From a virus (taxonomy: Duplodnaviria > Heunggongvirae > Uroviricota > Caudoviricetes), in IMG/VR virus record IMGVR_UViG_2654588181_000001: a DNA stretch of 48,351 bases; one strand, given 5' to 3'. Each line of letters starts with the position of its first letter. Position 1 is the first letter of the stretch. Shown here one piece after another: positions 21,096 through 48,351 of this stretch. The notes beneath the pieces were generated by a model. It was given only the letters and a program-made list of their open reading frames with translations, did no database searches and was not told where the DNA came from. Both the position numbers and the translations under genes were made by a program.

Positions 21096-22475
21096 CTACT
21101 TAATCAACGGCCGGAAAGCCGCCAGCACATCATCAGATCGTCCGATTGTTGAACCACCAGGCAACGGCAACTCAAACTCAAAACGAACAGCTTTCTCCAG
21201 ACTCGCCCAACTAAGGGAATCATCGTTAATGACGTGCAAATACCAGCTCTTACAGTTGAATATTGACCGCTTAATCCTGAAACCATGTACACGACACAAC
21301 TGCTTCACTTCCTCATCAGAGTGAAACTTCTGGTAAAACCAGTGCCCCTTCCGGTACAACGCGGTAAAACCGTTATGATCAATAAAATAAAGCCGGCTTT
21401 TGGAACTCGCCGCTTGTGTCTGCTTCAGGACTGTTTCCAGCTCTCCACGGCTACGGCCAGAAAAGAATATTGACCCACCAGCTTTACACAGCCCTTTCAG
21501 AACCGTCAGAACGGACCATTCAGCCTCGACACTATCGACCGAGTTCAAAACGCTATCGCAAATCACGTAGTCGTAACGCCCTCGCGTTTTTAAGTCGTCC
21601 ACCAGCGTATCAATCATCCGGTTTGTTGCGGTCCTATCCAGAGTGTTTCCAGCGCCCTTACGGCGGAAAAGCTCAAGATCATGCAGGTTATATCCCTTTG
21701 CCCTGAGCATTCGCGCGTAGTCTCCCTGACCCGAACCAAAATCAATTCCTCTTGGCGTCTTGGCAATGATCGGGAGGATCAACGACTCATACAGGTTTGA
21801 TTTCAGGCTGCCACCATTACGCAACCGCATAAGCTGCGCATACGTCTGGATGTATGTTGTTTTCTCCAGATGAGAATACTCAAATACACCATAAGTTTTA
21901 TTCAGATAACTTTGGTATTTTTCCTTCTCAACATCAGGGATCACAAACACCGTTAGCGGTGTGCGCGTCATCTTCGCTGCTAATGCATACTGAGCACAGT
22001 GAATAACCTCGCCAGACTGCGTAGCAACACAACCACCCCACGGACCATACTTGATAACCAGTTCCGCTATGTTCTTTCGAACATATGCCATTTTCGCGCG
22101 CATATTGCCTGAAATCTGGCTTGCCGATACCTGAACAAAACCATGCTTATCTCCCAGACCTGACACCCTGCAACGCTCATCTCCGCTATCAAAATCCGTT
22201 CCGTTATGCAGTTGGTTAAACCGTACTTCGTCGTATACCGTCGTTTCACAGGGCAACACATACACCGCAGCACGCGTTATTCCCAACTTACGTAGCGCCT
22301 TCGTCCTTTGGTGTCCCGCCACCAGCAAATCGCCGCGCACTATCAATGGCTTCACAAGCCCCAGCTCCCTGACGCTTTCCGCCAGCCTCGCAAGATCATC
22401 CTCACCGATAAAACGCGGGTTATATTCCGCGCCGCGTAGGTGCGTTATGTCGTAATTGAGATGAAGCATCAGCAC
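21096..22475 (-). CDS. ParB-like N-terminal domain fused to SAM-dependent methyltransferase domain
   Basis: 459-aa ORF; N-terminal ParB-like segment (LVAGHQRTKALRKLG); class-I MTase motif I-like IDFGSGQGDYARML and DYVICDSVLN. Confidence 0.65.
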   Translation of the reverse strand: MLMLHLNYDITHLRGAEYNPRFIGEDDLARLAESVRELGLVKPLIVRGDLLVAGHQRTKALRKLGITRAAVYVLPCETTVYDEVRFNQLHNGTDFDSGDERCRVSGLGDKHGFVQVSASQISGNMRAKMAYVRKNIAELVIKYGPWGGCVATQSGEVIHCAQYALAAKMTRTPLTVFVIPDVEKEKYQSYLNKTYGVFEYSHLEKTTYIQTYAQLMRLRNGGSLKSNLYESLILPIIAKTPRGIDFGSGQGDYARMLRAKGYNLHDLELFRRKGAGNTLDRTATNRMIDTLVDDLKTRGRYDYVICDSVLNSVDSVEAEWSVLTVLKGLCKAGGSIFFSGRSRGELETVLKQTQAASSKSRLYFIDHNGFTALYRKGHWFYQKFHSDEEVKQLCRVHGFRIKRSIFNCKSWYLHVINDDSLSWASLEKAVRFEFELPLPGGSTIGRSDDVLAAFRPLIK

Positions 22476-23092
22476 ACCTCCCCAGCCAGCAATGCGGATA
22501 CAAATCCGATATAGCTGCCATTATCATCAACATAACGAGATACCGCGCAGTCAAAACGATCCGCTTCCTCATCCGTTGCCGGGATTTTATGACCTCCAAA
22601 TGACAGGTACTGAACTTTTACGCCTGATTTGGCCTCATCCTTCTCAAATGGGATATCCATACCCTCTGTGTCATCGTAGACCGCCGCACTCAATAAGTTA
22701 TCCAGTTCGCGCTGAGTAAAACCAATTGAGTCCAGAGCAAAATCATCGGCCGCAAGATCTGCAAGTTCCGCGCTTAACAACTCTTCATCCCAACCAGCAT
22801 TCAGCGGAATACGGTTGTCGGCCAGACGATATGCCTTCTTCTGATTCTCCGTTAGCCCTTCCAGAACAATGCAGGGAACGTCATCCATCCCCAACTGAGT
22901 GGCCGCAGCAATTCGACCATGACCAGCAATTACAACGTTGTTCTCGTCTATCAGGATCGGATTAGTCCATCCGTACTCCTGTATGCTGGCAACAATCTGA
23001 TCTACCTGCTCCACGGAGTGTGTGCGAGCGTTCTTTTCATAACCAATCAACACAGAAAGTGGTAAAGAAACCACATTAAGATGTTTTGTCAT
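22469..23092 (-). CDS. ParB-like N-terminal domain protein (paralog 2)
   Basis: 207-aa ORF; ...ILIDENNVVIAGHGRIAAA...; about half identical to 19212..19802 by eye. Confidence 0.7.
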   Translation of the reverse strand: MTKHLNVVSLPLSVLIGYEKNARTHSVEQVDQIVASIQEYGWTNPILIDENNVVIAGHGRIAAATQLGMDDVPCIVLEGLTENQKKAYRLADNRIPLNAGWDEELLSAELADLAADDFALDSIGFTQRELDNLLSAAVYDDTEGMDIPFEKDEAKSGVKVQYLSFGGHKIPATDEEADRFDCAVSRYVDDNGSYIGFVSALLAGEVC

Positions 23093-24966: not shown

Positions 24967-25083
24967 CGGGTTATCTCCGGTTTAACCAGGGCGGGTATCG
25001 CTCGGTTTCGGGTATAACCATAGGAAATTTTTTCCCACCTGTAAAGCACCTTTTATATAAATATATAATTATATAATTCTATG
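24967..25083 (-). promoter_or_regulatory. repeated promoter-leader cassette, copy 1
   Basis: Near-identical to 31746..31865 and 41210..41330; -35 TTTACA, 17-nt spacer containing GGAAAAAATTTCC, -10 TATGGT, ~60-nt conserved leader, GGAG then ATG. Confidence 0.6.
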
Positions 25084-25666
25084 CCACTTGCCAGAGAGCA
25101 TCATGCAACTGGATACCTCCATTGCACTGGTTGCCCCAGCCATGCCAGCCATCAGGTAAATCACCGCGAGCAAACAGCTCAATACGGGGAACATCACCTA
25201 ACAGCCTTACCAGCTTGTCACGAACCACATCAGGCTTCCGAGAATGCTCCAGACGAGGCGATGTAAACGACTGAATGATCCCCGCATCAAGGCGGGTCGG
25301 CAGTTTGCCTTTTACCGCAAACAAGCAATCTTCACTGTTTGCACGAGTCATATGCCCCATCCCCATCACCAGCTTATCTGGTTGTCGGCTACCACATTTG
25401 TTCCATGTGAAGCCCTTCATGGTCATCAGCCTGAATCCCCATGCTTTCACCACCAGCAACGCTTCTTCTGGCTGAGTCGGAACCCACCACATGGCCAACA
25501 AACACGATTCAGGATTAGCAAGCTGCCAGACAGGAATACGAGCAATATCCTCAGCTTTCATCGTTGGATACTTAAAACCAGCGCCACGATTCCCATCCTT
25601 ACACTTGTCTTTGTATTCCCAGGGGGGATCTGCATAAATCAGATTAAACAATGCAATTGCCTCCAT
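25079..25666 (-). CDS. DNA N6-adenine methyltransferase, MT-A70-like
   Basis: 195-aa ORF with catalytic DPPW motif (LIYADPPWEY). Confidence 0.75.
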   Translation of the reverse strand: MEAIALFNLIYADPPWEYKDKCKDGNRGAGFKYPTMKAEDIARIPVWQLANPESCLLAMWWVPTQPEEALLVVKAWGFRLMTMKGFTWNKCGSRQPDKLVMGMGHMTRANSEDCLFAVKGKLPTRLDAGIIQSFTSPRLEHSRKPDVVRDKLVRLLGDVPRIELFARGDLPDGWHGWGNQCNGGIQLHDALWQVA

Positions 25667-25973: not shown

Positions 25974-26049
25974 TGGTGGCCCCTACCGGATTTGAACCGA
26001 TGACCGTGCGATTATGAGTCGCCTGCTCTAACCACTGAGCTAAGGGGCC
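25974..26049 (-). tRNA. tRNA with CAU anticodon (Ile2/lysidine type or Met), CCA encoded
   Basis: 76-nt cloverleaf: GGCCCCT acceptor stem, D-arm TAGCTCAGTGGTTAGAGCA, anticodon loop CTCATAA, T-loop GGTTCAAATCC, 3' CCA; first ~42 nt match my recollection of E. coli ileX. Confidence 0.8.
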
Positions 26050-30677: not shown

Positions 30678-31745
30678 TCAGGCTTTCAATAGCGATTCTT
30701 TCAGATATCGGGCATCAGCCAGGGCGTTTGGAGTAATCTTGCGAACCCATGCATTACGGGTTGGACTCCACTTAAAGGCGCGTGATTTAAGCAGCGAACG
30801 AATGTTTGCCTCTGGTTTGCCAGGGAAATAAAACAGGATGCGGTTATCCTCTGGATCTATCTCCATAGAAAAGCCGTCGTATTCTTCGCGCTGTGCTCCT
30901 GTTACAGACTTGACCGATTCAAGCTCCTTAATACGGCTCTGTAGTCGTTTGATTTCGGCGTTATTGTTGCTCAGTGCGTATGAAGGGAATCCGATGCGCC
31001 CACAGAAATCTCCGGCCAGTAACTCTTTGGCTTCGCTTTCTGTAAACCTGAGATCGATTAATGCAGAAAGCTGCTGTATTTGGTCTTTTTTGTATTTGCG
31101 AATGGCCTTATTTGCGGCCTTCATTTTGACGTGTGACTTCATGCAGCCTTGCAGCTTACGAAGCAACTTAAATAGCGCATCAGGATCATCAGACGAAATT
31201 CCATTACGACCAACACCTGCGGCTTTGCTCTCGTAGTGTGATGCTTTACTTTCGCATTCAACAAACGCTTTTCTGAATAACGCATCAGCTTTAGACAAAC
31301 GGCGGCGATGGCCTTTCGCGCTATAATGGTCAACTAAAATCGGCTGGCCTAACGGGATCACATCCAACAGGTCATGCGCTCGCTTATGCGCTACCGCACC
31401 TTCTTTTCTGGCTTTTTCTGCACGAGCAATATATCGGGCAAGACGCGCGTTCTGGCGTTCCTGATAGGTGTTTACGTAATCATCTCCGCGCTGCTGCTGT
31501 TCAAGCCATGCTTTGCGCAGATCTTCTGTTACGTCCACCAGCTCCGCAGGGATACAACCAGTTTGGGCTTCATAAGAGTAACCATCCTCATAGATACGCC
31601 CATCGTCTTCAACAAAGAAAAAGGTTTCGTGCTCATCGCTTTTGACCATACGACCATTAACATGGCGTAATAGGTAGCCAGTATCAGTGCTTAACAGGCT
31701 GTTAGGGTTGTTGATCCAGTCAGAAATAATTACTTGTTTATTCAT
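30678..31745 (-). CDS. conserved hypothetical protein (possibly DUF3560-like)
   Basis: 355-aa ORF directly driven by promoter-leader cassette copy 2. Confidence 0.55.
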   Translation of the reverse strand: MNKQVIISDWINNPNSLLSTDTGYLLRHVNGRMVKSDEHETFFFVEDDGRIYEDGYSYEAQTGCIPAELVDVTEDLRKAWLEQQQRGDDYVNTYQERQNARLARYIARAEKARKEGAVAHKRAHDLLDVIPLGQPILVDHYSAKGHRRRLSKADALFRKAFVECESKASHYESKAAGVGRNGISSDDPDALFKLLRKLQGCMKSHVKMKAANKAIRKYKKDQIQQLSALIDLRFTESEAKELLAGDFCGRIGFPSYALSNNNAEIKRLQSRIKELESVKSVTGAQREEYDGFSMEIDPEDNRILFYFPGKPEANIRSLLKSRAFKWSPTRNAWVRKITPNALADARYLKESLLKA

Positions 31746-34439: not shown

Positions 34440-35096
34440 ATGAAAAGCAACGACGAGAACATCAAGAAAGAAATAGGTCTGCGCATTCAGACTCTACGGA
34501 AACAATCCGGCATGACTGCCGGAGATCTCCAGCAAGTCACTGGAATAGGCTTAAGCACCTTGCAGAACTATGAGGCCGGATTAAGACAACCATCTATACC
34601 TGCCATCAAGAAAATCGCGCACGCCCTAAAAGCATCAGCGCCTTACATCGCGTGCTTAACAGATAACCCGTTCCCACCCCAGAATACTAACGCTCCTGTT
34701 ATTCCTGGGCTTGTAGCTATAAAAAATGACATAGCATCGCACGCCGGAGAAAAGCCTGTGCTGGCGATAGAACAGGAGATTTTACGAAGCAAGAACATCA
34801 ACCCATCGTCTCTGTCAGTTCTCCAGAGCAACGATGAGTTAATGTCACCAACAATATCCCCTGGCTCCCAAGTCCTGATTAATACAGACGATACAGAGAT
34901 TCATGAGGGGATCTATGCCCTTGAAGACAGAAATGGCCTAGTTGTTTTGAGGCACTGTAGAGTCATACCGGGTGACAATGCTGTTATGCTGTCAACCGAA
35001 AGGGATGCTGAAATGAACACTAAGCATCTGAATAACGAGGAATTTAAGCGTTATAAAGTTCTTGGCCGCGTAGTTAGTGTTGTCAACTGGTTATGA
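34440..35096 (+). CDS. CI-like repressor (HTH plus S24/LexA-like autocleavage domain)
   Basis: 218-aa ORF; N-terminal HTH; C-terminal ELMSPTISPGSQVLIN resembles S24 Ser-nucleophile region. Confidence 0.8.
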   Translation: MKSNDENIKKEIGLRIQTLRKQSGMTAGDLQQVTGIGLSTLQNYEAGLRQPSIPAIKKIAHALKASAPYIACLTDNPFPPQNTNAPVIPGLVAIKNDIASHAGEKPVLAIEQEILRSKNINPSSLSVLQSNDELMSPTISPGSQVLINTDDTEIHEGIYALEDRNGLVVLRHCRVIPGDNAVMLSTERDAEMNTKHLNNEEFKRYKVLGRVVSVVNWL

Positions 35097-35563: not shown

Positions 35564-35713
35564 CTGCAAGCGGGCTAACGCCCGCTTATATGATTATAGA
35601 TTTATATAATTATATAAAACGCTTTTCATCCGCCAAAAAGTTGGTTATGCTTACCTCGTTCTATAAATATAGATTTATAGAATTATATAATCAAACACAT
35701 GGAGTCTCGACAA

Positions 35714-36367
35714 ATGACTATCTCTGTAGGTATTTTCAACGGAAAAGGTGGCGTAACCAAATCAACAATTGCCCGTGCTTTAGCAGTTGCTTATGCAAAG
35801 GCTGGCTGGAATGTATGCCTGATCGATATGGATGTGCTTAACGGAACGGTAACGCGTTGGGTACAACGCAGAATGGCCAACAATATCGAACCAGCAATCG
35901 CGGCGCAGCCGTGCGGCACACCATCACAAGTCCAGAAAATCATCGAATCAGAAGTATACGACCTGGTTATCGTTGATGGCGGTGCCTACGCATCTGAATC
36001 AGTACCGAAGCTATCTGAATTTCTGGATATGGTTATTTTGCCAACCCGATTCTCTACCGATGACCTGGAAACCACCGTTAACACTGCTCACGGCATCGTT
36101 AAAAAGGGTGTACCAATCAAGAAAATTTGCATGGTGTTTTCCGGCGCGGCTGAAAACGAAGCTGACTATATTGAAGCCCAAGAGTACCTGGCTAATACGC
36201 CATACTTTGTTGTCGATAAGTACATTCCCCACAAGCCAGCTCTGAGCAAAGCTCAGGATAAGGGCTTAAGCCTCATTGAATGCTCATACGTTGCGCCACG
36301 CAAAAAGGCAGACGACGTTATTCAGGGGATTATCAACCAGCTTGAGGCTCTGACTACTGCCGCGTAA
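35714..36367 (+). CDS. parA: ParA-family partition ATPase
   Basis: Deviant Walker A GIFNGKGGVTKST at N-terminus; ATG at 35714 with GGAG 10 nt upstream. Confidence 0.85.
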   Translation: MTISVGIFNGKGGVTKSTIARALAVAYAKAGWNVCLIDMDVLNGTVTRWVQRRMANNIEPAIAAQPCGTPSQVQKIIESEVYDLVIVDGGAYASESVPKLSEFLDMVILPTRFSTDDLETTVNTAHGIVKKGVPIKKICMVFSGAAENEADYIEAQEYLANTPYFVVDKYIPHKPALSKAQDKGLSLIECSYVAPRKKADDVIQGIINQLEALTTAA

Positions 36368-36410
36368 TATATAATTATAGTTTTATAGATTTATATAAGA
36401 GGGGATACAC

Positions 36411-36659
36411 ATGGCCGCACCATCAAAACCACCAAAGAAGAACAGCAAAGGCGTACCGCCATCGATCGAACAACCGCAAGTTTTCGACCCGACTGAAACG
36501 CCAACCAGAACCAAATCAGGTGGGGCTCAAATGGCGTTTAATGTCGACCCTGAATTTAAACGCGAGTACAAAACGTTCGCCAGCTCAATGGATATGTCAT
36601 TGAAAGAAGTGCTGACAAAGTCTTTTGAGTTACTCAAGGCTCAATACAACCAGAAGTAA
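36411..36659 (+). CDS. small centromere-binding partner (ParG-like RHH)
   Basis: 82-aa ORF directly after parA; disordered basic N-terminus then MAFNVDPEFKREYKTFA RHH-like segment. Confidence 0.55.
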   Translation: MAAPSKPPKKNSKGVPPSIEQPQVFDPTETPTRTKSGGAQMAFNVDPEFKREYKTFASSMDMSLKEVLTKSFELLKAQYNQK

Positions 36660-36880: not shown

Positions 36881-36903
36881 TAAAAAAGGCCCCCGAAGGG
36901 GCC
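36881..36903 (-). terminator. rho-independent terminator
   Basis: GGCCCC-CGAA-GGGGCC hairpin followed by T-run on minus strand. Confidence 0.5.
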
Positions 36904-36909
36904 TAATCG

Positions 36910-37029
36910 CTACTTGCTGCTAATGTTTATCGTCACATTCAGAGCGTTATCAGTAATCTTCCAACCCTCCCCATGTGGCGTAAACAAAGCTCCAGTAACA
37001 ACGATAAAAATACACATACAGTATTTTTT
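36910..37029 (-). CDS. small hydrophobic peptide (40 aa) with own SD and terminator
   Basis: MKKYCMCIFIVVTGALFTPHGEGW...; AAGGG 8 nt upstream of ATG; terminator immediately downstream. Confidence 0.35.
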   Translation of the reverse strand, partial: KKYCMCIFIVVTGALFTPHGEGWKITDNALNVTINISSK

Positions 37030-37785
37030 CATTGTGTGGCCCTTACAGGCCGTTTCACGGCATCCCCACCGACGAAAACAACGCGAGAGCAAGCACGGCT
37101 GCTTGTGCTTGCATGTACGGCAACAGGAAATCCTCCCCTAAAGTCGGTGCCCGGGTGCGAATCGGCGGGAAGGTCCACAGGTATTTTACGATTATTTTAA
37201 GATTAGTAATAGGAAAGAAATTAAACGAAAAAAACAGTTTATTTTCACAAAATCAGTAACCTACCCACAATCTGTGAGTTTGCTGACACAACAAGAACCA
37301 CAATTTTTTGATGTATAATAGTGGACTATTATTACCTTTTGAGTAAAATCAATTTGCTGCTTGTGCTTGCGTGGTTGTTTATACAACAACGTAATGCTGA
37401 AAGGACCGCGAATCCGATCAGCACGAAAGAACCGTCCTCAATAGGGCGGTTTTTTTGTTTCTGCCTACCAATAAACCCACGCTATGTGGTTGTCTCTGTT
37501 AAAATCCCGCCGTATTGACATGAATGCGCCATTGGTGGACACTTTCCGAGCCGTAGCAAAATCTACGGTCGGGATTAGCCTCCTGAATAACACGATGGCG
37601 CATACCGCGTTAGCGGTTTTTTTATGCGTAGAGCACTGTTACGCCCAAATTATGGTGGGTCGTACAGGGGCGGAGAAATCCGCGCCGGTTCGTCATTGTG
37701 TCCGGTAAGGCTAACCCTGTACGGCTCACCACCATTTGATTAGCCTCGAATGGCGGTGATAGTTCCATATACTGGAGATATCACA

Positions 37786-37977
37786 ATGACAAACCTACCC
37801 CATGACTATTACGTCAACCTCGTAAAGATCCTTCTCAAGAAAGCCTCATACGCCGATAAATTCCGCCTGGCTGAAATCATCGAGCGCGAAGCTATGCGCA
37901 TCGCCAGCAACGATAACGCTGTTTCTGACGCAAAAATCTCCCTCGTAACCAAAGTAGTTATGGGAGGTGCAAAATGA
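37786..37977 (+). CDS. small ORF overlapping antirepressor start (icd-like position)
   Basis: Stop overlaps ant ATG (ATGA at 37974..37977); start uncertain. Confidence 0.35.
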   Translation: MTNLPHDYYVNLVKILLKKASYADKFRLAEIIEREAMRIASNDNAVSDAKISLVTKVVMGGAK

Positions 37978-39116
37978 AAACGCTTCCGACCGTTAACACC
38001 CTACAGCCTATCCTGCATAACCAGATCCCCGTTATCACTAGTGAACTTCTGGCGCAGTTATACGGAACAAAAATCAAAAACATTTCTGATAACTTTCTGA
38101 ACAACACGACGCGATTCGTAGCCGGAAAGCATTACTTTAAAATTGAAAAAAACGAATTACGCGAGTTCAAGAACAGACCCGAAACAATCGGGTTAGTTGG
38201 TAAAAATGCCCGCTCCCTAATTCTCTGGACCGAACGCGGGGCTGCACGTCACGCTAAAATGCTCGAAACCGATCAGGCGTGGGATGTATTCGAACGGCTG
38301 GAAGACTGCTATTTCAGCCAGAACGCGCAAACGGCCGCGACCGTAACCGTCTCGCCAAACAATGCTCGTGAGGTTGTCGATACGCTCAACGCCAAACCGA
38401 TGTTTTACATTAAGGTGTGCAATAACGAGCCACTCACAACCTCAGCCGATGTTGCCCAGGCATTCAGCACCACAAACAATTCCATCGTTATGGCCATCGA
38501 TGCGCTACGCATTCCTCGCACGGCTGCGGCGCGTCACTTCTTTAAAGAGCAACGACCGTTGGAAGGAAGCGACCGCGAAATAACAATCTATCGCATGACA
38601 AAAGACGGATTTACCTTGCTCATGGAGAGCATCGACGGTCCAGGCGTGAAAGATATCAAGCTGGCCTACATTGAAGCCTTTAACGCTATCAGCAGCGTGT
38701 TAAAAACACAGTACGAGCGTGATCTGGCTAAACGACTGTACCAGGAAAAAACGATTATCCGCGCGGCAACAGAGCATAATCGGCTATTAACGGAACCGAA
38801 CTACAGGAAGGAACTAATCAAGGAGTTTGACAAGGCAACAGGGAAAACCAAAGCGGCGCTAAATCTGCCAGCAATGACTCAGGAAAATGTGATATCAGCC
38901 TTACTTCTTGATCTGCTCAGAAACGCCAGAGCACTTATCAGCTTTGACGAAAACCTGAATCCTCAGCTCAAGCTACTACCACCGACAGGCAAAGTAGTCG
39001 ACCAGGCTGATCACAACAGCATACTCAGCGTACTGGATGCAAACCTGCCAGCCAGGACACTACAGGATCTGATAAAAACATGTGCTGATAAGCTGGCACA
39101 GAAAAGCAGACCATAA
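37974..39116 (+). CDS. antirepressor (Ant-like)
   Basis: 380-aa ORF; N-terminal KilA-N/ORF6N-like segment; operator-like CCCACGCTATGTGGT upstream at 37477..37491. Confidence 0.7.
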   Translation: MKTLPTVNTLQPILHNQIPVITSELLAQLYGTKIKNISDNFLNNTTRFVAGKHYFKIEKNELREFKNRPETIGLVGKNARSLILWTERGAARHAKMLETDQAWDVFERLEDCYFSQNAQTAATVTVSPNNAREVVDTLNAKPMFYIKVCNNEPLTTSADVAQAFSTTNNSIVMAIDALRIPRTAAARHFFKEQRPLEGSDREITIYRMTKDGFTLLMESIDGPGVKDIKLAYIEAFNAISSVLKTQYERDLAKRLYQEKTIIRAATEHNRLLTEPNYRKELIKEFDKATGKTKAALNLPAMTQENVISALLLDLLRNARALISFDENLNPQLKLLPPTGKVVDQADHNSILSVLDANLPARTLQDLIKTCADKLAQKSRP

Positions 39117-41372: not shown

Positions 41373-41672
41373 TCAGATGTTAAACGCTATTCGTTTTCCT
41401 GTGGGAAGCTCAACATCCAGGCTTAATTTGCCTCCCATAGCTTCAACGTAACGCTTTAATGTCGCCAGCTTTAAATCATTTCCGCGCTGCTCCAGCTTTG
41501 TTACTGCTGGCTGGCTTATACCCATCGCCTCAGCAACCTGTTTTTGTGATAACTGGAGTTCTTCACGCATCATCTGCAAGCCGACCTCAAGAATCATCTC
41601 ATCTGCCATTTCTTTAATTCGCGCCTGGCTTTCAGGTGAACGGCTGGCAATCACCTCATCTAATGTTCTCAT
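41373..41672 (-). CDS. HTH antitoxin (HigA-like)
   Basis: 99-aa XRE HTH ORF; start overlaps toxin stop (ATGA). Confidence 0.65.
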   Translation of the reverse strand: MRTLDEVIASRSPESQARIKEMADEMILEVGLQMMREELQLSQKQVAEAMGISQPAVTKLEQRGNDLKLATLKRYVEAMGGKLSLDVELPTGKRIAFNI

Positions 41673-42019
41673 TACTTGCTCTCCAGTGTGTTCAGATGTG
41701 CTGCAAACTCATCCTCAGCTATACGCACCAGTTTTTTATAAAACCGCTTATCGTTACTTTTGTCTCCTGCACAAAGAACGATGGCCCGGCGAATCGGATC
41801 GAACGCATAAAAGGCTCTTATCGGACGGCCAGAAAACTGAACGCGAAGCTCTTTCATATTTTTGTACCGAGAACCTTTTACGGTATCGGCATATGGCCTG
41901 GGTAACTCAGGTCCGTAAACCTGTAGATTTTTCAAATCAGCCAAAACCTTTTCCTGAAGAGCGTCTTCTTGCTCATTTAGCCAGTCGTCAAATCGCTGGC
42001 TAAAAAGTACCGTCCACAT
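41672..42019 (-). CDS. RelE/ParE-superfamily toxin (HigB-like)
   Basis: Start at ATG 42019 (MWTVLFSQRFDDWL...); ...ELRVQFSGRPIRAFYAFDPIRRAIVLCAGDKS pattern; upstream inverted TATAACC repeats. Confidence 0.65.
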   Translation of the reverse strand: MWTVLFSQRFDDWLNEQEDALQEKVLADLKNLQVYGPELPRPYADTVKGSRYKNMKELRVQFSGRPIRAFYAFDPIRRAIVLCAGDKSNDKRFYKKLVRIAEDEFAAHLNTLESK

Positions 42020-42263
42020 GCTCAATCCTATAACCTGTAGTTTATACCACTGACTATATAACCCGTAGGTTATAATTTCAAGAAAAACGGGGCTATTTAA
42101 CATAATGGACGTTATCGGCACCACCGGATCACCGTTCATTGTCGGATCTAAAAAATCCGCTCAAAAGATCATGTTTTCCTGGGCGTTTTCCACCGTTTTT
42201 TATGTTGCTTATTTGTTAATGAAATCTCGTTTTCAGTTTCGCCTCATTTTCGACGCGAAAGCC

Positions 42264-42554
42264 CTATTTTTGTGACTTTACTCCTGGCATATGGACTTCC
42301 CAGCGACGAATCCCCATAGCTGCGCAAAAATCAGCCACATAATTCAATCCCGCCCATTCGCGGATACCACCACGGGCTTTTTCAATGAAAACGGCAATCC
42401 CTTTTTTATTGAGAGCAAAAAGCCGCCAGCTTTTTGTCACTTCGTCCTGGGTAGCCACAACACAAGTGAAAGCTCCCATGCGATACAGGTCCAAGAACTC
42501 TTTGCGTGTTTTGCGTACAAGTTCCATAACAAACCTCATATTTGCATGTTTCAA
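42264..42554 (-). CDS. hypothetical protein
   Basis: 96-aa ORF overlapping stop of upstream HTH gene. Confidence 0.4.
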   Translation of the reverse strand: MKHANMRFVMELVRKTRKEFLDLYRMGAFTCVVATQDEVTKSWRLFALNKKGIAVFIEKARGGIREWAGLNYVADFCAAMGIRRWEVHMPGVKSQK

Positions 42555-42850
42555 ACATCTGTTTTGTTATCAATGAAGATTAACCCTAACCCAGCGAAGT
42601 AACACAGCAGCGCCCAGGCTGCATACGGAATGCTGGATCTGGATGTGGACTCCTTTAACATCTGCCAGTTGCGAACATTGCGGCTATCTTTTAAGCCTAG
42701 TTTTTTGGCCAACTGCGAGCCACTCATTCCGGTCAGGCCAATGACTGCCCGAACTTCTCCACATGTAGGAGATTCCCATTCATCCGCTTTTTTTAAACAA
42801 GCCGGATTCAACATTTTTAAAACAGTATCTTTATCCATAACCATCTCCAT
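42551..42850 (-). CDS. small HTH DNA-binding protein (candidate repressor of the GGAAA-N3-TTTCC operators)
   Basis: 99-aa ORF; promoter has same architecture as the repeated cassettes with AGGAAA-N3-TTTCCT in the spacer. Confidence 0.5.
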   Translation of the reverse strand: MEMVMDKDTVLKMLNPACLKKADEWESPTCGEVRAVIGLTGMSGSQLAKKLGLKDSRNVRNWQMLKESTSRSSIPYAAWALLCYFAGLGLIFIDNKTDV

Positions 42851-43229
42851 TTATTATATCTACGATGGTAGGAAATCTTTTCCTATGTGGCAATAGAAAT
42901 TTACTACATTGCGTATAAGACAAGTTTTCTATGTCTAATAGGAAATGATGTTTCTTACGTTTTATCGCGTTCTGATGGCTACTGTGTGCGTATTTATCGA
43001 CGTTTATTGATAAGGCTCGCCCCTTCCTCCTGCAAAGCCCGGCCGTAGGCCTTATTTCGGCCTTATATAAATTGATTTTGTATAGTTCGAAACGCGCCGT
43101 TTCGAAAAGGATGATCAGGCTGCTCCATGCCTCCGGCAAGTGCCGGAGGAGGTATATTTGAGCGTAGCGACTCGAACCGGCGCGAGCTTTAGCTCGCTGC
43201 AAGGGCGAACATATTCACAGGCAAAGCCT

Positions 43230-43481
43230 GCGTAAGTTAAATAAAGAAAGTTTTAATAAAAGAAAGTGATTTTGCATTTATTTGTTTAGTGCATCTATTA
43301 TAAAAAACCATTTGCATATACATATCAAAACTGTGGATAACTTTATTAGCCGATGCCTGTAAAGGCGATATTTTTGCTGTGTTCAGGTTTAGAGAAAACT
43401 AATTTAGATTGTTTTTTGAACAGATATTTTATTGCGACGTAGATAATCCTCCGGTAAAACCGGATTCATCATTCAGGTGGG
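43230..43481. other. candidate replication origin (oriR-like) downstream of repA
   Basis: AT-rich; DnaA box TGTGGATAA at 43332..43340, about 140 bp past repA stop. Confidence 0.45.
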
Positions 43482-44330
43482 TTAATGTTGGAGTGATTTC
43501 CAGGTCTTTCTTAACCTGTTATAACGCTGCTCAACGAGGGATCGTAAATATGCAAGGTCAGCTCCAGGATACATGCCATCAGCAAATTCCTGGCTAACCT
43601 CTCTAGTGATTTGATGACGAAGTTCGGCCTCTCCCTTTTCCCGAACAAGACGCGCAGCTCTCTCCGCTGCTTTCTGTTTTGCCTTTATCTCTCTGGCCGT
43701 CTTCCTCTGACGCCATACATTCTCCATCTGCTCCTGAATAACAATACGCTTATAATCAGCCTCCGTTATCGCTTTTTTAAGCCGTTCGCTATTCTTCGCA
43801 TTGAAGTAATTAAGTTTCTGGCTAACCGCACGTCTCCATGCTTGTTCAGTAATACCAACGGTTTCCAGCAGTTGATCACGAATCTCTATTTTCGCTGGCC
43901 AATACTGTTTATTCACCCGATCCCAGCGACGTTCATAATCAATAAAACCTAACGCTTTCAGTTGCGACAACGCCCTTGTACAGCGTGTTATAGACTTGTT
44001 CCCAGCTTCGGATACGGTAGACAGGCCGCAAAAATCAGCCAACGCCTCAGCACTGGCCAGAACCCGCTTAGAAATGATGTTTACATGGTGCAAAATCGCA
44101 GCAATCACAGCATTAATCGCCCGACGACGATGCTCGTTTATCCGACGCTTCCGCTCTGACGGTTGATTAACGTAGAACGCAACCTCACACGTAAGATCAC
44201 GACCATTAATGCGCTGTAAAGCATCAGATAACACCAGCGGCAGCTTGTGCGTATGGTGCTTTGGAGGCTGGAACTCCGGCGACAAATTACAAACGTAAGC
44301 TGAACGTAGAGACGGCATTGGTCTATCCAT
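43482..44330 (-). CDS. repA: plasmid replication initiator, IncFII RepA-family
   Basis: ...GLSTVSEAGNKSITRCTRALSQLKALGFIDYE... resembles IncFII RepA1 core as recalled; start uncertain (TTG 44360, ATG 44330 or 44318). Confidence 0.75.
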   Translation of the reverse strand: MDRPMPSLRSAYVCNLSPEFQPPKHHTHKLPLVLSDALQRINGRDLTCEVAFYVNQPSERKRRINEHRRRAINAVIAAILHHVNIISKRVLASAEALADFCGLSTVSEAGNKSITRCTRALSQLKALGFIDYERRWDRVNKQYWPAKIEIRDQLLETVGITEQAWRRAVSQKLNYFNAKNSERLKKAITEADYKRIVIQEQMENVWRQRKTAREIKAKQKAAERAARLVREKGEAELRHQITREVSQEFADGMYPGADLAYLRSLVEQRYNRLRKTWKSLQH

Positions 44331-44344
44331 ATGTTCGCTCTTGC

Positions 44345-44457
44345 GTCCACGGAAAACCAACGTATAATGGGAGTTGTCGAGGCGCCCATGGTTAATTGGT
44401 TGTTGGTTTTCCGTGGATGTCGCAAGAAGCCCGCAGATTTATCTGCGGGCTTTTTGT
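44345..44457 (+). ncRNA. candidate countertranscript (CopA-like antisense RNA)
   Basis: Plus-strand 15-bp-stem hairpin (44347..44361 / 44403..44417) plus intrinsic terminator GCCCGCAGA-TTTAT-CTGCGGGC-TTTTT (44428..44457), antisense to repA leader. Confidence 0.35.
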
Positions 44458-44644
44458 TTCCATATCTGGTCATTTTCCAACCAGACACCCACAATCATAA
44501 CCACGTTACGTGGTTTTAAGAGAACTCTACCACAACACTTTCGGTCATGCACGAAGTCTCTCACTGATCGAACGATAATCCACCAGTAAAAGGATCTAAA
44601 TTGGATCTCGTTTTGCGAGCATCATACTACTGGCCTAACTCCAG

Positions 44645-45199
44645 TCAATGATTCCCAGCCGGAAACCTGCGGTAAAGCGTGGATAAGGTAACATCGAAGA
44701 TAATCGCTATCCGCTTACGTGAAACACCATTCGCAATAAGCCTTCCGATCTGTTCCCATTGCTCTGGGGCCAATTTTGAGCGGCGTCCTCCTATCCTGCC
44801 ATTAGCCCTTGCCACCGCCAATCCTGCACGCGTTCTTTCAATCATATTTTCCCGCTCCATCTCTGCGACTGCACTCAGCATCGTGTAGGCAAAGCGGCCA
44901 ATTGAAGTGCTAATTTTTATCCCTTCCGTAATCGAAATAAACTCAATGTTGTTTGATAAAAAATGGTTAAGTAAATCAACAAGATGAATCAGAGAACGCC
45001 CCATTCGATCCAGCTTCCAGACAATAACCGTATCGCCCGGCCGTAACACCTTCAGTAGCTTATCAAGCCCTGGTCGTTTTGATTTAGCACCGGATATTTT
45101 ATCTTCAAAAATCCGGTCACATCCTGAACTCCTGAGCGCCTCCAGTTGTAATTCCAAATTCTGGTCAAAAGTTGACACCCTCGCATAACCATATTGCAT
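44645..45199 (-). CDS. serine DNA invertase (Gin/Cin/Pin/Hin family)
   Basis: 184-aa ORF; N-terminal YARVSTFDQ with catalytic Ser, C-terminal HTH; adjacent to inverted repeat. Confidence 0.9.
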   Translation of the reverse strand: MQYGYARVSTFDQNLELQLEALRSSGCDRIFEDKISGAKSKRPGLDKLLKVLRPGDTVIVWKLDRMGRSLIHLVDLLNHFLSNNIEFISITEGIKISTSIGRFAYTMLSAVAEMERENMIERTRAGLAVARANGRIGGRRSKLAPEQWEQIGRLIANGVSRKRIAIIFDVTLSTLYRRFPAGNH

Positions 45200-45272: not shown

Positions 45273-45297
45273 ACCTCGGTTTACAGGAAACGGTAAA
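45273..45297. repeat. inversion crossover site, left inverted repeat
   Basis: ACCTCGGTTTACAGGAAACGGTAAA = exact reverse complement of 48327..48351 and of 1..25. Confidence 0.8.
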
Positions 45298-46297
45298 CAA
45301 GGCTGGTAACGCCGTGCAAAAGACAGGCGATACCTTGTCCGGTGGACTTACTTTTGAAAACGACTCAATTCTTGCATGGATTCGAAATACCGACTGGGCA
45401 AAGATTGGATTTAAAAATGATGCCGACAGCGATACTGATTCATACATGTGGTTTGAAACAGGCGACAACGGCAATGAATATTTCAAATGGAGAAGCAAAC
45501 AAAGCACCACAACAAAAGACCTGATGAATCTTAAATGGGATGCTTTGTCTGTTCTTGTTAAAGCCCTTTTCAGCAGTGAAGTAAAAATATCGACAGTCAA
45601 TGCACTGAGGATATTTAATTCATCTTTTGGTGCCATTTTTCGTCGTTCTGAAGAATGCCTGCATATCATCCCTACACGAGAGAATGAGGGGGAAAATGGT
45701 GATATAGGGCCACTACGCCCCTTTACGCTTAATCTCAGAACAGGTCGCATAACTATGGGGCATGGTCTGGATGTTACAGGAGATATATTTACAAACCGTT
45801 TTTTAATTAACAGCAGTACAGGCATGTGGATTCATATGCGTGACCAGAACGTTATTATGGGACGTAATGCGGTATCCACTGATGGTGCTCAGGCATTGCT
45901 TCGTCAGGACCATGCCGACCGCAAGTTCATGATAGGTGGATTGGGAAATAAGCAATTTGGCATCTACATGATTAATAACTCAAGGACAGCCAATGGCACC
46001 GATGGTCAGGCGTACATGGATAATAACGGGAATTGGCTTTGCGGCTCGCAAGTTATTCCCGGCAACTATGGCAATTTTGATTCCAGATATGTGAAAGATG
46101 TTCGACTTGGTTCACAGCAATATTATGGAGTGAACAACTGGCAAACATGGAATTTCCAGTGCCCGTCAGGTCATGTATTGTCTGGTATTAATGTTCAGGA
46201 TACAGGGTCCAACTCTGCCGATAATATAGCGGGCGTTTATTACAGACCCGTTCAAAAGTATATAAATGGCACCTGGTATAATGTAGCGAGCGTTTAA
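45273..46297 (+). CDS. alternative tail-fibre C-terminal cassette (silent in this orientation)
   Basis: Open frame through the left repeat (…[25 protein letters not shown]…) with no upstream start; becomes fused to the constant part after inversion. Confidence 0.7.
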
Positions 46298-47389: not shown

Positions 47390-48351
47390 TTAAATACTCC
47401 CCGCGTTATACCACGTTCCATTAATGCAATACTGAATTGGCCTTGCCTGAGTTGTATCAATTAATTCATCACGGTTTCCGTTAACTGACCCCGTAACGAC
47501 ATAACCTGACCTGTCAGACCAGCCGGGACCATTCCATGTCTGAACAGATGACAGACCGCCAAGACGAATACCTGTAATAAACCTTGAGTTACATTCTGCC
47601 TGCGTGTATGCACCAACATCTCCCGCAGAGGGTTTGCGGGTTGTGGTGTAAAACTCTGACCAGTCAGCTTCAAAGCCATAACCATCACGCGCTGAACGAT
47701 AAAAGATACCGCCATTTCTGTAATTCACGCGGAACTGTACAGCAGGGCTGCTCCCCGTATTCATATTGAAGTGGAGGATTAATGTCGATGCGCCACCAAT
47801 ATTTGCGTTATAGACCCCGCTATTCCAGTTCCAGCCAACAGCTTTATCATTTCCGACAGTGCTTCCTGTTTGCCCTAAAGCAAATGCAGGCTGCTGGTTT
47901 TTCGTGTTGTAGTCTCGTCGCCAGCCAGGAGCATAAGCATCACCATGATTAATATAGGTGAATTGAGCGTTAGTAATTCCGCCGCCGCTGGACGTACTCG
48001 GCGTAGTAACGCGTATGGTCATTGCGCCGCGAGTGCCAATAACTTCCACCACAGCACCTGCAAGACAAATATTTCCGCAACCTGTATCTGTAATGACCTT
48101 ATTATTTGCATAAGCCCATGAGCCTTTGCACATCCAGTAAGGATGGTTAAATGCCCCCTGACTCTCCAGCCACGAAATAAATTGCGCAGTTGTCCAGACC
48201 TGACTATCGCCACCAATATCCACCCATGCGCTATATGCGCGACAGGCCCCAATATTTTTGGTGAAGGTATCTTTTCCCGGAATATCTGCGCCGTTCTGGT
48301 TTTTCTGTAATGCGCCAGAAGCCTGATTTACCGTTTCCTGTAAACCGAGGT
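47390..48351 (-). CDS. tail-fibre variable C-terminal part (in frame with constant part at 1..1361 across the junction)
   Basis: Minus-strand frame open from 48351: [18 protein letters not shown]...; Gly-rich distal domain ending INGTWYNAGSI. Confidence 0.8.
   Translation of the reverse strand, partial: LGLQETVNQASGALQKNQNGADIPGKDTFTKNIGACRAYSAWVDIGGDSQVWTTAQFISWLESQGAFNHPYWMCKGSWAYANNKVITDTGCGNICLAGAVVEVIGTRGAMTIRVTTPSTSSGGGITNAQFTYINHGDAYAPGWRRDYNTKNQQPAFALGQTGSTVGNDKAVGWNWNSGVYNANIGGASTLILHFNMNTGSSPAVQFRVNYRNGGIFYRSARDGYGFEADWSEFYTTTRKPSAGDVGAYTQAECNSRFITGIRLGGLSSVQTWNGPGWSDRSGYVVTGSVNGNRDELIDTTQARPIQYCINGTWYNAGSI
48327..48351. repeat. inversion crossover site, right inverted repeat (identical to 1..25)
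   Basis: TTTACCGTTTCCTGTAAACCGAGGT; core resembles gix/cix-type sites as recalled. Confidence 0.8.

What the first reader, a model, noticed from the sequence alone, without database searches (positions are those of the whole stretch)
42900..44640. IncFII-type RepA replicon inside a phage genome, with no integrase or phage replication genes
ORF 43482..44330 has a core (GLSTVSEAGNKSITRCTRALSQLKALGFIDYE) that matches my recollection of IncFII RepA1. An AT-rich stretch about 140 bp downstream contains a consensus DnaA box (TGTGGATAA, 43332..43340), as in oriR. I found no tyrosine or serine integrase (only the invertase), and no O/P, DnaB/DnaC or primase genes. The phage therefore probably replicates as a low-copy plasmid in lysogeny.
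Basis: partly seen in the sequence, partly recalled or inferred. Interest (0 to 1): 0.8.

Follow-up and report, generated by a model that had tools for sequence, protein, structure and literature searches.

The report
Plasmid replicon of a phage-plasmid
This 48-kb tailed phage has no integrase but does carry a complete plasmid-type replication unit, so it almost certainly lives in its host as a free plasmid; that lifestyle is well known, but this widespread E. coli lineage seems not to have been described.

Summary
The minus-strand ORF 43482..44330 is a RepA initiator. It passes Pfam IncFII_repA (E 9e-44) and NCBIfam RepA_IncFII_LM (232 bits, cutoff 70). The window's only perfect DnaA box (43332-43340) lies 142 bp downstream, beside an 18-23% GC tract, in the same order and orientation as in an R100-type IncFII replicon.

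"IncFII" holds only at family level. The protein fails the narrow incFII_RepA model, shares 40% identity with R100-type RepA over 97 residues, gives no CopA hit, and its carrier plasmids get no replicon type.

I also found a likely ~85-nt antisense RNA (about 44372-44459, plus strand) opposite the repA leader. It has two hairpins that stay fully paired in 10 alleles, two compensatory pairs and a hypervariable loop. A stable leader stem covers the repA ribosome-binding site.

Plasmid lysogeny is strongly supported. The same replicon occurs in 71 of 5426 complete E. coli genomes, at 82 places, all on plasmids of about 47-49 kb, including ATCC 25922. Three deposited Yersinia phages are about 99% identical. 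No integrase or recognisable phage replication gene was found.

Verdict: a real, ordinary-in-kind phage-plasmid. It is a new member of a known kind, of moderate interest.

The parts
44621..44648 (-). Promoter-like site for repA (TTGACT-16-TATGAT), overlapping the 3' end of the invertase gene
   Evidence: 10 of 12 matches. Both hexamers are kept in the Salmonella and Klebsiella relatives despite about 76% overall identity.
44331..44613 (-). Untranslated repA leader of about 280 nt, highly structured
   Evidence: MFE -118 kcal/mol, z = -7.9 against shuffles.
44340..44426 (-). Long leader stem. CUUGCG + CCACGGAAAACCAAC (44426-44402) pairs with GUUGGUUUUCCGUGG + CGCAAG (44361-44340). It covers the AAGAG Shine-Dalgarno (44342-44338) upstream of repA.
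   Evidence: One compensatory G-C to A-U pair in the Salmonella alleles.
44138..44389 (-). Leader ORF starting at ATG 44389 inside the loop of the leader stem (MGASTTPIIRWFSVDARAN...). It runs through the 3' arm and over the repA start in another frame. Only its first 19 or so codons are conserved.
   Evidence: The ORF is 83 aa here and 65 aa in Salmonella; my reading of the K. aerogenes sequence gives 32 aa. That it is translated is inferred.
44341..44368 (+). Promoter-like site for the antisense RNA: -35 TTGCGT (44341-44346), 16-nt spacer, perfect -10 TATAAT (44363-44368)
   Evidence: Read. Invariant in all alleles, including the 76%-identical Salmonella leaders. The scan missed it because the -35 matches only 3 of 6.
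44372..44459 (+). Predicted antisense (countertranscript) RNA of about 85 nt: a 5' tail, stem-loop I, then a GC-rich terminator hairpin (44423-44450) and U-tract (44451-44459)
   Evidence: MFE -41.5 kcal/mol, z = -6.9. (10 distinct alleles, 100% of 260 cells paired against 42-52% when slid, 2 pairs with compensatory changes). (the terminator part resembles the terminators of the CsrC and Thr-leader models). The transcript itself has not been observed.
44392..44407 (.). Hypervariable tract: the apical loop of antisense stem-loop I, and the stretch just 5' of the leader-ORF ATG on the sense strand
   Evidence: 14 of 25 variable columns in a 372-column alignment of 17 E. coli-clade control regions fall here, with at least 7 length and sequence alleles.
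43482..44330 (-). repA, replication initiator (282 aa from ATG 44330; 278 aa from the conserved ATG 44318)
   Evidence: PGAP names it 'plasmid replication initiator RepA' in near-identical plasmids.
43451..43463 (-). Hairpin CCGG-N5-CCGG just after the repA stop, followed by AGG
   Evidence: kept with compensatory changes (CCAG..CTGG in L016/L018, CCGT..ACGG in pCAV1176-34). A similar CCGG..CCGGAGG follows repA in the R100-type plasmid.
43332..43340 (-). DnaA box TTATCCACA, 142 nt after the repA stop
43267..43317 (-). Three conserved ATGCA-centred motifs (TATGCAAATGG, GATGCAC, AATGCAAAATCAC) next to the DnaA box; candidate RepA-binding region
   Evidence: near-invariant down to 37% RepA identity. 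Binding is inferred.
43222..43307 (.). AT-rich tract with two 15-nt direct repeats (43237-43251, 43253-43267); candidate DNA-unwinding element
   Evidence: Corresponds in position to the AT-rich TTTAAA repeats of the R100-type oriR.
43160..43233 (-). Two conserved hairpins (CGCAGGC-TTT-GCCTGTG, then CCCTTGCAGCG-[hairpin]-CGCGCCGGTTCG..TCGCTACGCTC); candidate single-strand priming signal
   Evidence: About 90 other plasmids share the 50-bp core. The hairpin stems vary by compensatory changes (GAGCT/AGCTC, GGCGC/GCGCC, GACGT/ACGTC). Function is inferred.
35586..36659 (+). Partition cassette: ParA ATPase (35699-36367), an 82-aa downstream gene (36411-36659), and clusters of 8-bp-period TTATAGAT/TTATATAA repeats (35586-35698, 36367-36406)
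41373..42139 (-). Toxin-antitoxin pair (Gp49/HigB-like toxin, HTH_3 antitoxin) downstream of the origin
   Evidence: Relatives carry other TA types (HicB, ParE) at the same place.
44645..45199 (-). Gin/Hin-type serine DNA invertase. It is the only recombinase, is not an integrase, and lies directly upstream of the repA promoter.

Best explanation
Region 42900-44660 is the plasmid-maintenance replicon of a temperate myovirus that exists as a circular plasmid prophage (a phage-plasmid).

**Shown**
- An intact RepA of the RepA_IncFII_LM / PF02387 family.
- A downstream origin laid out in the same order as R1/R100 oriR: a hairpin after the stop codon, a DnaA box, a conserved block, an AT-rich repeat tract, then conserved hairpins.
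- Near-identical elements are always extrachromosomal in sequenced E. coli.

**Inferred mechanism**
- RepA, made from the promoter at 44648-44621, binds the conserved ATGCA block beside the DnaA box. With host DnaA it opens the AT-rich tract. Host DnaB/DnaC and primase then start theta replication, perhaps priming at the conserved hairpins at 43160-43233.
- Copy number is set after transcription. A constitutive antisense RNA of about 85 nt (44372-44459) pairs through its variable loop with the repA leader. That blocks translation of a leader ORF (ATG 44389).
- Without leader-ORF translation, the 22-bp leader stem keeps the repA ribosome-binding site closed.
- This is the IncFII/IncB/IncI control logic, built from unrelated RNA sequence.
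- The ParA cassette and a toxin-antitoxin pair stabilise the low-copy plasmid.
For: - **RepA family.**
- **Origin.** Same order and DnaA-box orientation as an R100-type plasmid. DnaA box, ATGCA block and hairpins are conserved, with compensatory changes, across replicons whose RepA is 83%, 60% and 37% identical.
- **Antisense RNA.** A perfect -10 and an orientation-specific terminator. The structure is 100% paired in 10 alleles with 2 compensatory pairs, against 42-52% paired in slid controls. One stem-I pair is U-G on the antisense strand but a C-A mismatch on the sense strand.
- **Variable loop.** 14 of 25 variable columns fall in 16 nt.
- **Leader stem.** It covers AAGAG.
- **Plasmid state.** 82 of 82 places on plasmids in 71 E. 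coli genomes. 57 circular plasmids of about 47-49 kb cover at least 80% of the region. The head genes co-occur with the replicon.
- **Phage state.** Three deposited phages at 98.4-98.9% identity, a full virion gene set, and 8 IMG/VR viral contigs with the same control region.
- **No rival machinery.** No integrase or other replication genes.
- **Stabilisation.** ParA with repeats, and a TA pair.
Against: - Nothing here shows the antisense RNA is transcribed, that RepA binds the ATGCA block, or what the copy number is.
- The -35 of the antisense promoter is weak (3 of 6), and the promoter scan did not list it.
- The leader ORF has no clear Shine-Dalgarno. Its length is not conserved (83 and 65 aa; 32 aa on my reading of the K. 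aerogenes sequence). It does not stop near the repA start as IncFII tap does, so coupling is a model, not a finding.
- Covariation rests on only two or three independent lineages.
- The variable tract is an (AAC)n-like low-complexity run. It could vary through slippage alone.
- No Rfam family matches the RNA.
- The source of the window itself (virion or plasmid) is unknown.
Confidence: 0.85

Rival explanations
1. The RepA replicon is also the lytic replicon. It would be the phage's only replication module, switched up after induction, as with the single RepA of N15. It would then not be a lysogeny-only device beside an unrecognised lytic replicon such as P1 repL.
For: No other initiator, helicase, loader, primase or polymerase was recognised among the early genes. 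The DUF3560 protein is not primase-like.
Against: About a dozen early-operon proteins have no known function. A novel lytic initiator could hide among them. Antisense-limited IncFII-family replicons are built for low copy. No regulatory link between the CI-like repressor and repA is visible.
Confidence: 0.35
2. The element is a phage-like plasmid that no longer makes infectious particles, that is, a plasmid with phage cargo rather than a true phage.
For: Most relatives are known only as plasmid records. Some carry IS insertions or are shortened, at 32-39 kb.
Against: Three relatives at 98.4-98.9% identity are deposited as complete phage genomes with Yersinia pestis EV76 as host. The window has uninterrupted terminase, portal, protease, capsid, sheath, tube, tape-measure, baseplate, fibre and lysis genes.
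Confidence: 0.1
3. The structured region at 44340-44460 is not a copy-control antisense system. It would be only a bidirectional terminator or insulator between the invertase gene and repA, with copy control exerted some other way, such as RepA autoregulation.
For: No Rfam CopA or other antisense family match. The antisense -35 is weak. RepA homologues at 60% identity (L016, L018) lack this region and have an upstream 162-aa winged-helix ORF instead. So the RepA clade can use other control.
Against: The hairpin is followed by a U-tract only on the plus strand. A perfect, invariant TATAAT lies 55 nt upstream of the hairpin on that strand. Stem-loop I is paired only when read on the antisense strand. 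Variation is confined to its loop.
Confidence: 0.15
4. The prophage integrates, using the serine recombinase or an unrecognised integrase, and repA is inactive cargo.
For: A serine recombinase is present. One chromosomal place matches the head genes in 5426 genomes (not examined).
Against: None of the 82 replicon places is chromosomal. The recombinase is a 184-aa Gin/Hin-type invertase with gix-like repeats around the tail-fibre segment. RepA is intact and 100% conserved in a cluster of 525 member sequences.
Confidence: 0.03

Closest known systems
IncFII basic replicon of R1/R100 (repA1, copA/copT, tap, copB, oriR)
   Same: - Same RepA superfamily (PF02387, NF040977), with 40% identity across the winged-helix core.
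- The origin lies downstream of repA, with a perfect TTATCCACA in the same orientation at +142 against +176, followed by AT-rich repeats.
- A hairpin CCGG..CCGGAGG follows the stop codon.
- The predicted control is a short two-hairpin countertranscript against the leader, plus a leader ORF.
   Different: - Fails the narrow incFII_RepA equivalog (79 bits against 447).
- No CopA (RF00042) match even at E up to 10.
- No copB-like gene between the upstream gene and repA.
- The leader ORF is long and of variable length, and does not end at the repA start.
- The replicon is untyped by MOB-suite.
- It is carried by a phage, not a conjugative plasmid.
RepA replicons of pKPC_UVA01 / pCAV1176-34-type mobilisable plasmids (MOB-suite rep_cluster_1367)
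   Same: The closest typed plasmid replicon found: 37% RepA identity over the full length. It shares the ATGCAAATGG block and the 50-bp CCCTTGCAGCG-hairpin-CGCGCCGGTTCG..TCGCTACGCTC element at the same distance from repA.
   Different: The leader region has a different sequence, with a UUUGGCG loop hairpin. The DnaA box is degenerate at the aligned position. These are mobilisable resistance plasmids with no phage genes.
Phage-plasmids P1/P7, D6, SSU5 group and N15
   Same: Temperate tailed phages kept as plasmids by their own Rep, partition and addiction modules, without integration. The window also shares P1-like features: an immI-like C4 antisense RNA plus antirepressor, and a Cin/Gin-type invertible tail-fibre segment.
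   Different: - It is half the size of P1 or SSU5, at about 48 kb.
- It has lambda-type head genes (gpA terminase, capsid E) and a P2-type tail.
- The defined phage-plasmid types in reviews are AB, P1, N15 and the SSU5-related groups of 55-111 kb. None fits this element.
- A tblastn search with this RepA against 50,697 phage records hit only the three vB_YpM records.
Yersinia phages vB_YpM_39/41/44 and ~48-kb E. coli plasmids (pECO-b75, the ATCC 25922 48.5-kb plasmid and others)
   Same: Essentially the same element: 98-99% identity over the replicon and structural genes.
   Different: They differ in antisense-loop alleles, in the orientation of the invertible segment, and in accessory genes. 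In the phage records repA is annotated only as a hypothetical protein.

Membership tests
RepA_IncFII_LM / Pfam IncFII_repA initiator family | Protein scores above the curated cutoffs of PF02387 and NF040977 over nearly the full model length | tested here: met
   PF02387 150.3 bits (cutoff 22.9), model positions 2-272 of 275. NF040977 232.2 bits (cutoff 70), positions 1-266 of 266.
IncFII group proper (R1/R100-type replicon) | RepA meets the incFII_RepA equivalog TIGR03474 / PRK13750 | tested here: not met
   79.2 bits against 446.9, and 82.3 against 478. The R100-type control scores 577 and 615.
IncFII group proper (R1/R100-type replicon) | CopA antisense RNA homologous to Rfam CopA | tested here: not met
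   No CopA hit at the gathering threshold or at E up to 10 on 42800-44700. An analogous but unrelated antisense RNA is predicted.
IncFII group proper (R1/R100-type replicon) | copB (repA2) repressor gene upstream of repA, and a short tap leader peptide ending at the repA start (features from my knowledge of R1) | tested here: not met
   No ORF lies between the invertase stop (44645) and repA other than short unconserved ones. The candidate leader ORF is 83 aa here and 65 aa in Salmonella, overlapping repA.
IncFII group proper (R1/R100-type replicon) | oriR downstream of repA with a DnaA box followed by an AT-rich region | tested here: met
   TTATCCACA at +142 (R100-type: +176), same orientation, followed by an AT-rich repeat tract.
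IncFII group proper (R1/R100-type replicon) | Typed as IncFII by replicon-typing schemes | tested here: not met
   PLSDB/MOB-suite gives no replicon type for the 10 carrier plasmid records examined. The control plasmid is typed IncFIA,IncFII.
Antisense-RNA-controlled theta replicons (IncFII/IncB/IncI/IncL-M class) | Countertranscript unit (promoter and rho-independent terminator) inside the rep leader, with a conserved stem-loop structure | tested here: met
   TTGCGT-16-TATAAT plus hairpin and U-tract on the plus strand. 100% pairing in 10 alleles with 2 compensatory pairs. This is sequence-level evidence only.
Antisense-RNA-controlled theta replicons (IncFII/IncB/IncI/IncL-M class) | The RNA is expressed and lowers RepA synthesis and copy number | not testable with these tools
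   Needs RNA-seq or Northern blots, and genetics.
Phage-plasmid | A complete virion, lysis and lysogeny gene set together with plasmid replication and partition genes on one replicon | tested here: met
Phage-plasmid | No integrase; the prophage is found as an autonomous circular replicon | tested here: met
   No integrase. 82 of 82 places are on plasmids. Records examined are circular and about 46-49 kb. This is shown for near-identical relatives, not for the window's own source.
Phage-plasmid | Produces infectious virions | not testable with these tools
   Indirect only: relatives at 98.4-98.9% identity are deposited as phages with Yersinia pestis EV76 as host.

The most novel reading that the evidence does not exclude
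This may be an undescribed, common lineage of small (~48 kb) phage-plasmids. It is present in 1.3% of complete E. coli genomes, including the QC strain ATCC 25922. It also occurs in E. fergusonii, E. albertii, Klebsiella aerogenes and Salmonella, and it can infect Yersinia pestis.

Its RepA_IncFII_LM replicon may be the sole replication module for both lysogeny and lytic growth. Its hypervariable antisense loop may define several incompatibility or immunity types, so that related phage-plasmids can coexist or exclude each other. The same RepA/ori cassette, with a different control module, sits at the same position in a second myovirus lineage with a Mu-type baseplate. That would make it a mobile 'lifestyle cassette' that takes the place of an integrase.
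Probability: 0.3. Interest if true: 0.55.

Novelty: new member of a known kind. Interest (0 to 1): 0.35.

Why it matters
- **Invisible to surveillance.** Phage-plasmids move genes both as viruses and as plasmids. Surveillance finds them by replicon typing or by searching for P1, SSU5, N15 or D6 marker genes. This lineage has an untyped replicon and is not one of the defined phage-plasmid types, so it goes unseen. Yet it is present in about 1 in 75 complete E. coli genomes, including a global reference strain.
- **Compact test system.** The replicon offers a small system for studying how an antisense-controlled plasmid replicon is integrated with a phage lysis-lysogeny switch.
- **Incompatibility among phages.** It also allows a test of whether loop variation creates incompatibility groups among phages.
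- **Limits.** The basic fact, a phage using a plasmid replicon instead of an integrase, is well established. It would not surprise a specialist.

Tried and rejected
- **Rfam CopA or other antisense families.** No hit. Only terminator-like partial matches to Thr_leader and CsrC, below their thresholds.
- **PGAP's 325/326-aa RepA (METKSPQINL...).** Rejected. That start depends on the length of the variable tract. It is out of frame in the window and reads through the terminator hairpin.
- **pSLy3, AnCo3, LF82 Cyrano or ETEC phage-plasmids as the same family.** Rejected. pSLy3, AnCo3 and the ETEC elements are SSU5- or P1-like at about 95-111 kb. I excluded LF82 Cyrano from my own recollection that it is SSU5-like, without reading that paper.
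- **Literature search.** Searches by accession and by phage name, plus supplementary tables of three phage-plasmid papers, found nothing on this lineage. The preprint that names vB_EcoM-613R2 and -473R2 only notes a ParB gene.
- **DUF3560 protein as a hidden primase.** Rejected.
- **The first two early proteins as replication proteins.** No family or PDB sequence match. The first has a Cro-like N-terminus by eye.
- **RepA against solved structures.** No relative.
- **Homology of the conserved hairpin element to the R100-type region downstream of oriR.** No shared motif was found. The priming-site idea therefore rests on analogy only.
- **The 5'-UUGGCG-3' loop motif** (recalled from IncB/IncI antisense RNAs). 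Present in the pCAV1176-34 leader but not clearly in this element. Not used as evidence.
Full report
**1. The observation**

The reading frame stays open up to 44360. It is a genuine replication initiator. Pfam IncFII_repA scores E 9.1e-44 across 271 of 275 model positions. NCBIfam RepA_IncFII_LM scores 232 bits against a cutoff of 70. The recalled core aligns residue for residue with an R100-type RepA at 40% identity over 97 aa.

In the Salmonella and Klebsiella relatives the only in-frame start is the ATG that corresponds to 44318 (MPSLRS...). The protein is therefore probably 278 aa. PGAP's longer 325-aa version in some plasmids is an artefact. It depends on the length of a variable tract and is out of frame in this window.

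The DnaA box TGTGGATAA is at 43332-43340. It is the only perfect box in the window. With one mismatch allowed the count is 12 against 14 expected, so number alone proves nothing. GC falls to 18-23% just beyond it.

**2. What the window is**

- **Virion genes.** The window carries a full set of virion, lysis and regulatory genes. These include a gpA-type terminase, portal, ClpP-like protease, capsid E, sheath, tube, tape measure, a P2-type baseplate, tail fibres and an invertible fibre segment.
- **Circular genome.** Its two ends repeat the same 25-nt gix-like sequence, and the tail-fibre gene runs across the junction. It is a circular genome cut at the inversion site.
- **Phage relatives.** The replicon region is 98.4-98.9% identical to three deposited phages, Yersinia phage vB_YpM_39, 41 and 44.
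- **Plasmid relatives.** It is 98-99% identical to 57 or more circular plasmids of about 47-49 kb from E. coli, E. fergusonii, E. albertii and Klebsiella aerogenes.
- **Always on plasmids.** Among 5426 complete E. coli genomes, 71 carry it. All 82 places are on plasmids and none on a chromosome. ATCC 25922 is among the carriers.
- **Head genes travel with it.** They occur in 72 genomes, at 76 plasmid places and one chromosomal place that I did not examine.

**3. Integrase and phage replication genes**

Every ORF of 150 aa or more is accounted for. The only recombinase is a 184-aa Resolvase+HTH_7 protein next to gix-like inverted repeats. It is a Gin/Hin-type invertase.

No initiator, helicase, loader or polymerase was recognised. 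One protein needed a closer look: the 355-aa DUF3560 protein at 30678-31745, whose C-terminal half matches a PHROG labelled "primase". Three results argue against that label.

- Homologues are often fused to the ArdC N-terminal anti-restriction domain.
- A confident model (pLDDT 89.6) is a long helical bundle with small beta domains.
- The model has no significant PDB fold match; the best E-value is 0.11.

About a dozen early proteins still have no known function.

**4. Anatomy of the replicon, read on the repA strand**

*(a) Promoter.* A promoter-like site, TTGACT-16-TATGAT, lies at 44648-44621 and overlaps the end of the invertase gene. It is kept in relatives that are only 76% identical.

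*(b) Leader.* The leader is about 280 nt and strongly structured. Its last part forms a 22-bp interrupted stem between 44426-44402 and 44361-44340. The stem covers the AAGAG motif upstream of the repA start.

*(c) Leader ORF.* Inside the loop of that stem an ORF starts at ATG 44389. It reads through the 3' arm and into repA in another frame. Its first 19 codons are conserved. Its length is not: 83 aa here and 65 aa in Salmonella, and 32 aa on my reading of the K. aerogenes sequence.

*(d) Antisense RNA.* On the opposite strand a TTGCGT-16-TATAAT site (44341-44368) is followed by a GC-rich hairpin with a U-tract (44423-44459). This predicts an antisense RNA of about 85 nt with two hairpins.

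- Across 10 distinct alleles, from E. coli, E. fergusonii, K. aerogenes, two Salmonella lineages and IMG/VR contigs, all 260 pair cells are standard pairs. Slid controls give 42-52%. Two pairs show compensatory double changes.
- One stem-I pair is U-G on the antisense strand but C-A on the sense strand. That points to the antisense molecule as the folded one.
- Variation is concentrated in the apical loop. In 17 E. coli-clade control regions, 14 of 25 variable columns fall within 16 nt (44392-44407), with at least seven alleles.
- The loop could be a specificity determinant, as in IncFII CopA. It could equally be slippage in an (AAC)n-like run that is tolerated because it is unpaired. I cannot separate these two readings.

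*(e) Origin.* Downstream of repA the layout is:

- a hairpin just after the stop (43451-43463);
- the DnaA box (+142);
- three ATGCA-centred motifs (43267-43317);
- an AT-rich tract with two 15-nt repeats;
- two hairpins inside a conserved element (43160-43233).

This order is kept in replicons whose RepA is 83%, 60% and 37% identical, with compensatory changes in each hairpin. The DnaA box aligns at +133 to +142 in five of them. An R100-type IncFII plasmid has TTATCCACA at +176 in the same orientation, followed by AT-rich repeats. About 90 mobilisable plasmids of the pKPC_UVA01 / pCAV1176-34 type share the 50-bp hairpin element.

**5. Most likely mechanism**

- **Shown.** The parts listed above, their conservation, and the plasmid state of the element.
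- **Inferred from what is established for R1/R100 and related replicons (my knowledge).** RepA and host DnaA open the AT-rich tract, and host enzymes carry out theta replication. The conserved hairpins may act as a priming signal like the R1 G-site. I found no sequence homology to support that.
- **Inferred from the anatomy.** The antisense RNA pairs with the leader and blocks the leader ORF. Without ribosomes passing through it, the leader stem keeps the repA start closed. This gives negative feedback on copy number.
- **Stabilisation.** A ParA gene flanked by 8-bp-period repeats, an 82-aa partner gene and a HigB/Gp49-type toxin-antitoxin pair fit a low-copy plasmid. Copy number itself was not measured.

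**6. Comparison with what is known**

The element works like an IncFII/IncB/IncI-class replicon and belongs to the broad RepA_IncFII_LM family. It is not a member of the IncFII group.

- It fails the narrow equivalog, at 79 bits against 447.
- It has no CopA homologue.
- It has no copB-like gene and no short tap-like peptide.
- Its carrier plasmids get no replicon type.
- Its nearest typed relative is rep_cluster_1367, at 37% identity.

As a phage-plasmid it is not one of the defined types (AB, P1, N15, SSU5-related) listed in the papers I could read. A tblastn search with this RepA against 50,697 deposited phage genomes hit only the three vB_YpM records. A review table does list IncFII replicon types for some P1-group and pMT1-group phage-plasmids. 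An IncFII-family Rep in a phage-plasmid is therefore not unprecedented.

I found no paper describing this lineage. The library lacks most subscription journals, so this is absence of evidence only.

**7. A wider family**

RepA homologues at 81-85% identity occur in Salmonella and K. aerogenes elements with the same gene order. Homologues at about 60% identity sit in contigs of about 45 kb and one of 61.6 kb. Those contigs have a Mu-type baseplate, again with repA just after the tail-fibre genes and ahead of a toxin-antitoxin pair.

These more distant relatives keep the origin. They replace the antisense region with a 162-aa winged-helix ORF that overlaps the repA start (ATGA). The RepA/ori cassette has therefore moved between phage lineages and has changed its control module.

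**8. Verdict**

It is a new member of a known kind. It has practical relevance, because it is an untyped and common replicon. It also shows a tidy predicted antisense control unit. It is not a surprise to specialists.

Interest 0.35.

Noticed in passing
window 36882-37178 (-): Full-length Rfam ryfA match (140 bits, cutoff 80) just after the par locus. It contains a 40-aa hydrophobic ORF (MKKYCMCIFIVVTGALF...). This may be a TimP/ryfA-like type I toxin locus acting as a second addiction module.
   Followed up: partly
window 37550-39116 (+): An isrK-like RNA (37550-37623) and a C4 antisense RNA (37648-37736) are followed by a 75-aa ORF and a 380-aa Ant/Rha-type antirepressor. This is a P1/P7 immI-like immunity module in a phage that also has a CI-like HTH+S24 repressor (34440-35096).
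   Followed up: partly
window 1-25 and 48327-48351; 45273-45321: The window ends duplicate a 25-nt gix-like sequence (ACCTCGGTTTACAGGAAACGGTAAA), which shifts the tail-fibre frame at the junction. The record is a circular genome cut, with an overlap, inside the crossover site of the invertible segment. That segment is inverted relative to vB_YpM_44.
   Followed up: yes
L016 7516-8004 and L018 7516-8004: In the RepA relatives at 60% identity (phage-plasmids with a Mu-type baseplate) the antisense region is absent. A 162-aa ORF with a weak RepA-like winged-helix motif overlaps the repA start (ATGA). This looks like a different, protein-based control module.
   Followed up: partly
window 44517-44549 (-): A 10-codon ORF in the repA leader (MTESVVVEFS) is kept in frame with the same stop in the Salmonella leaders (MESVMIEFF), despite 76% identity. 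I read both peptides by eye from the sequences and the alignment. It could be chance or a second leader peptide.
   Followed up: no
window 19212-19802, 21096-22475, 22469-23092 (-): Three ParB/Srx-N-terminal-domain (nuclease-like) genes lie next to the terminase region, plus an MT-A70 methyltransferase (25079-25666). They are not partition ParB proteins. An earlier preprint counted such a gene as ParB.
   Followed up: no
window 30678-31745 (-): The DUF3560 protein gives a confident model (pLDDT 89.6): a long helical bundle with N- and C-terminal beta domains, and no significant PDB match. Homologues are fused to ArdC-N and polyvalent-protein domains, which suggests an anti-restriction or DNA-entry role.
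   Followed up: partly
window 42264-42850 (-): Two small conserved genes (99 aa and 96 aa; PHROGs 8351 and 4595, function unknown; the first has a weak HTH-repressor hit) lie directly after the origin on the repA strand, with their own promoter-like site at 42893-42865. Whether they belong to the replicon is unknown.
   Followed up: no
E. coli genome collection (not in the window): One of 77 matches to the terminase-portal DNA lies on a chromosome. It could be an integrated relative or a partial match.
   Followed up: no
window 25977-26049 (-): A tRNA gene (Rfam 67 bits; annotated tRNA-Met in vB_YpM_44) lies between the lysis genes and the methyltransferase.
   Followed up: no
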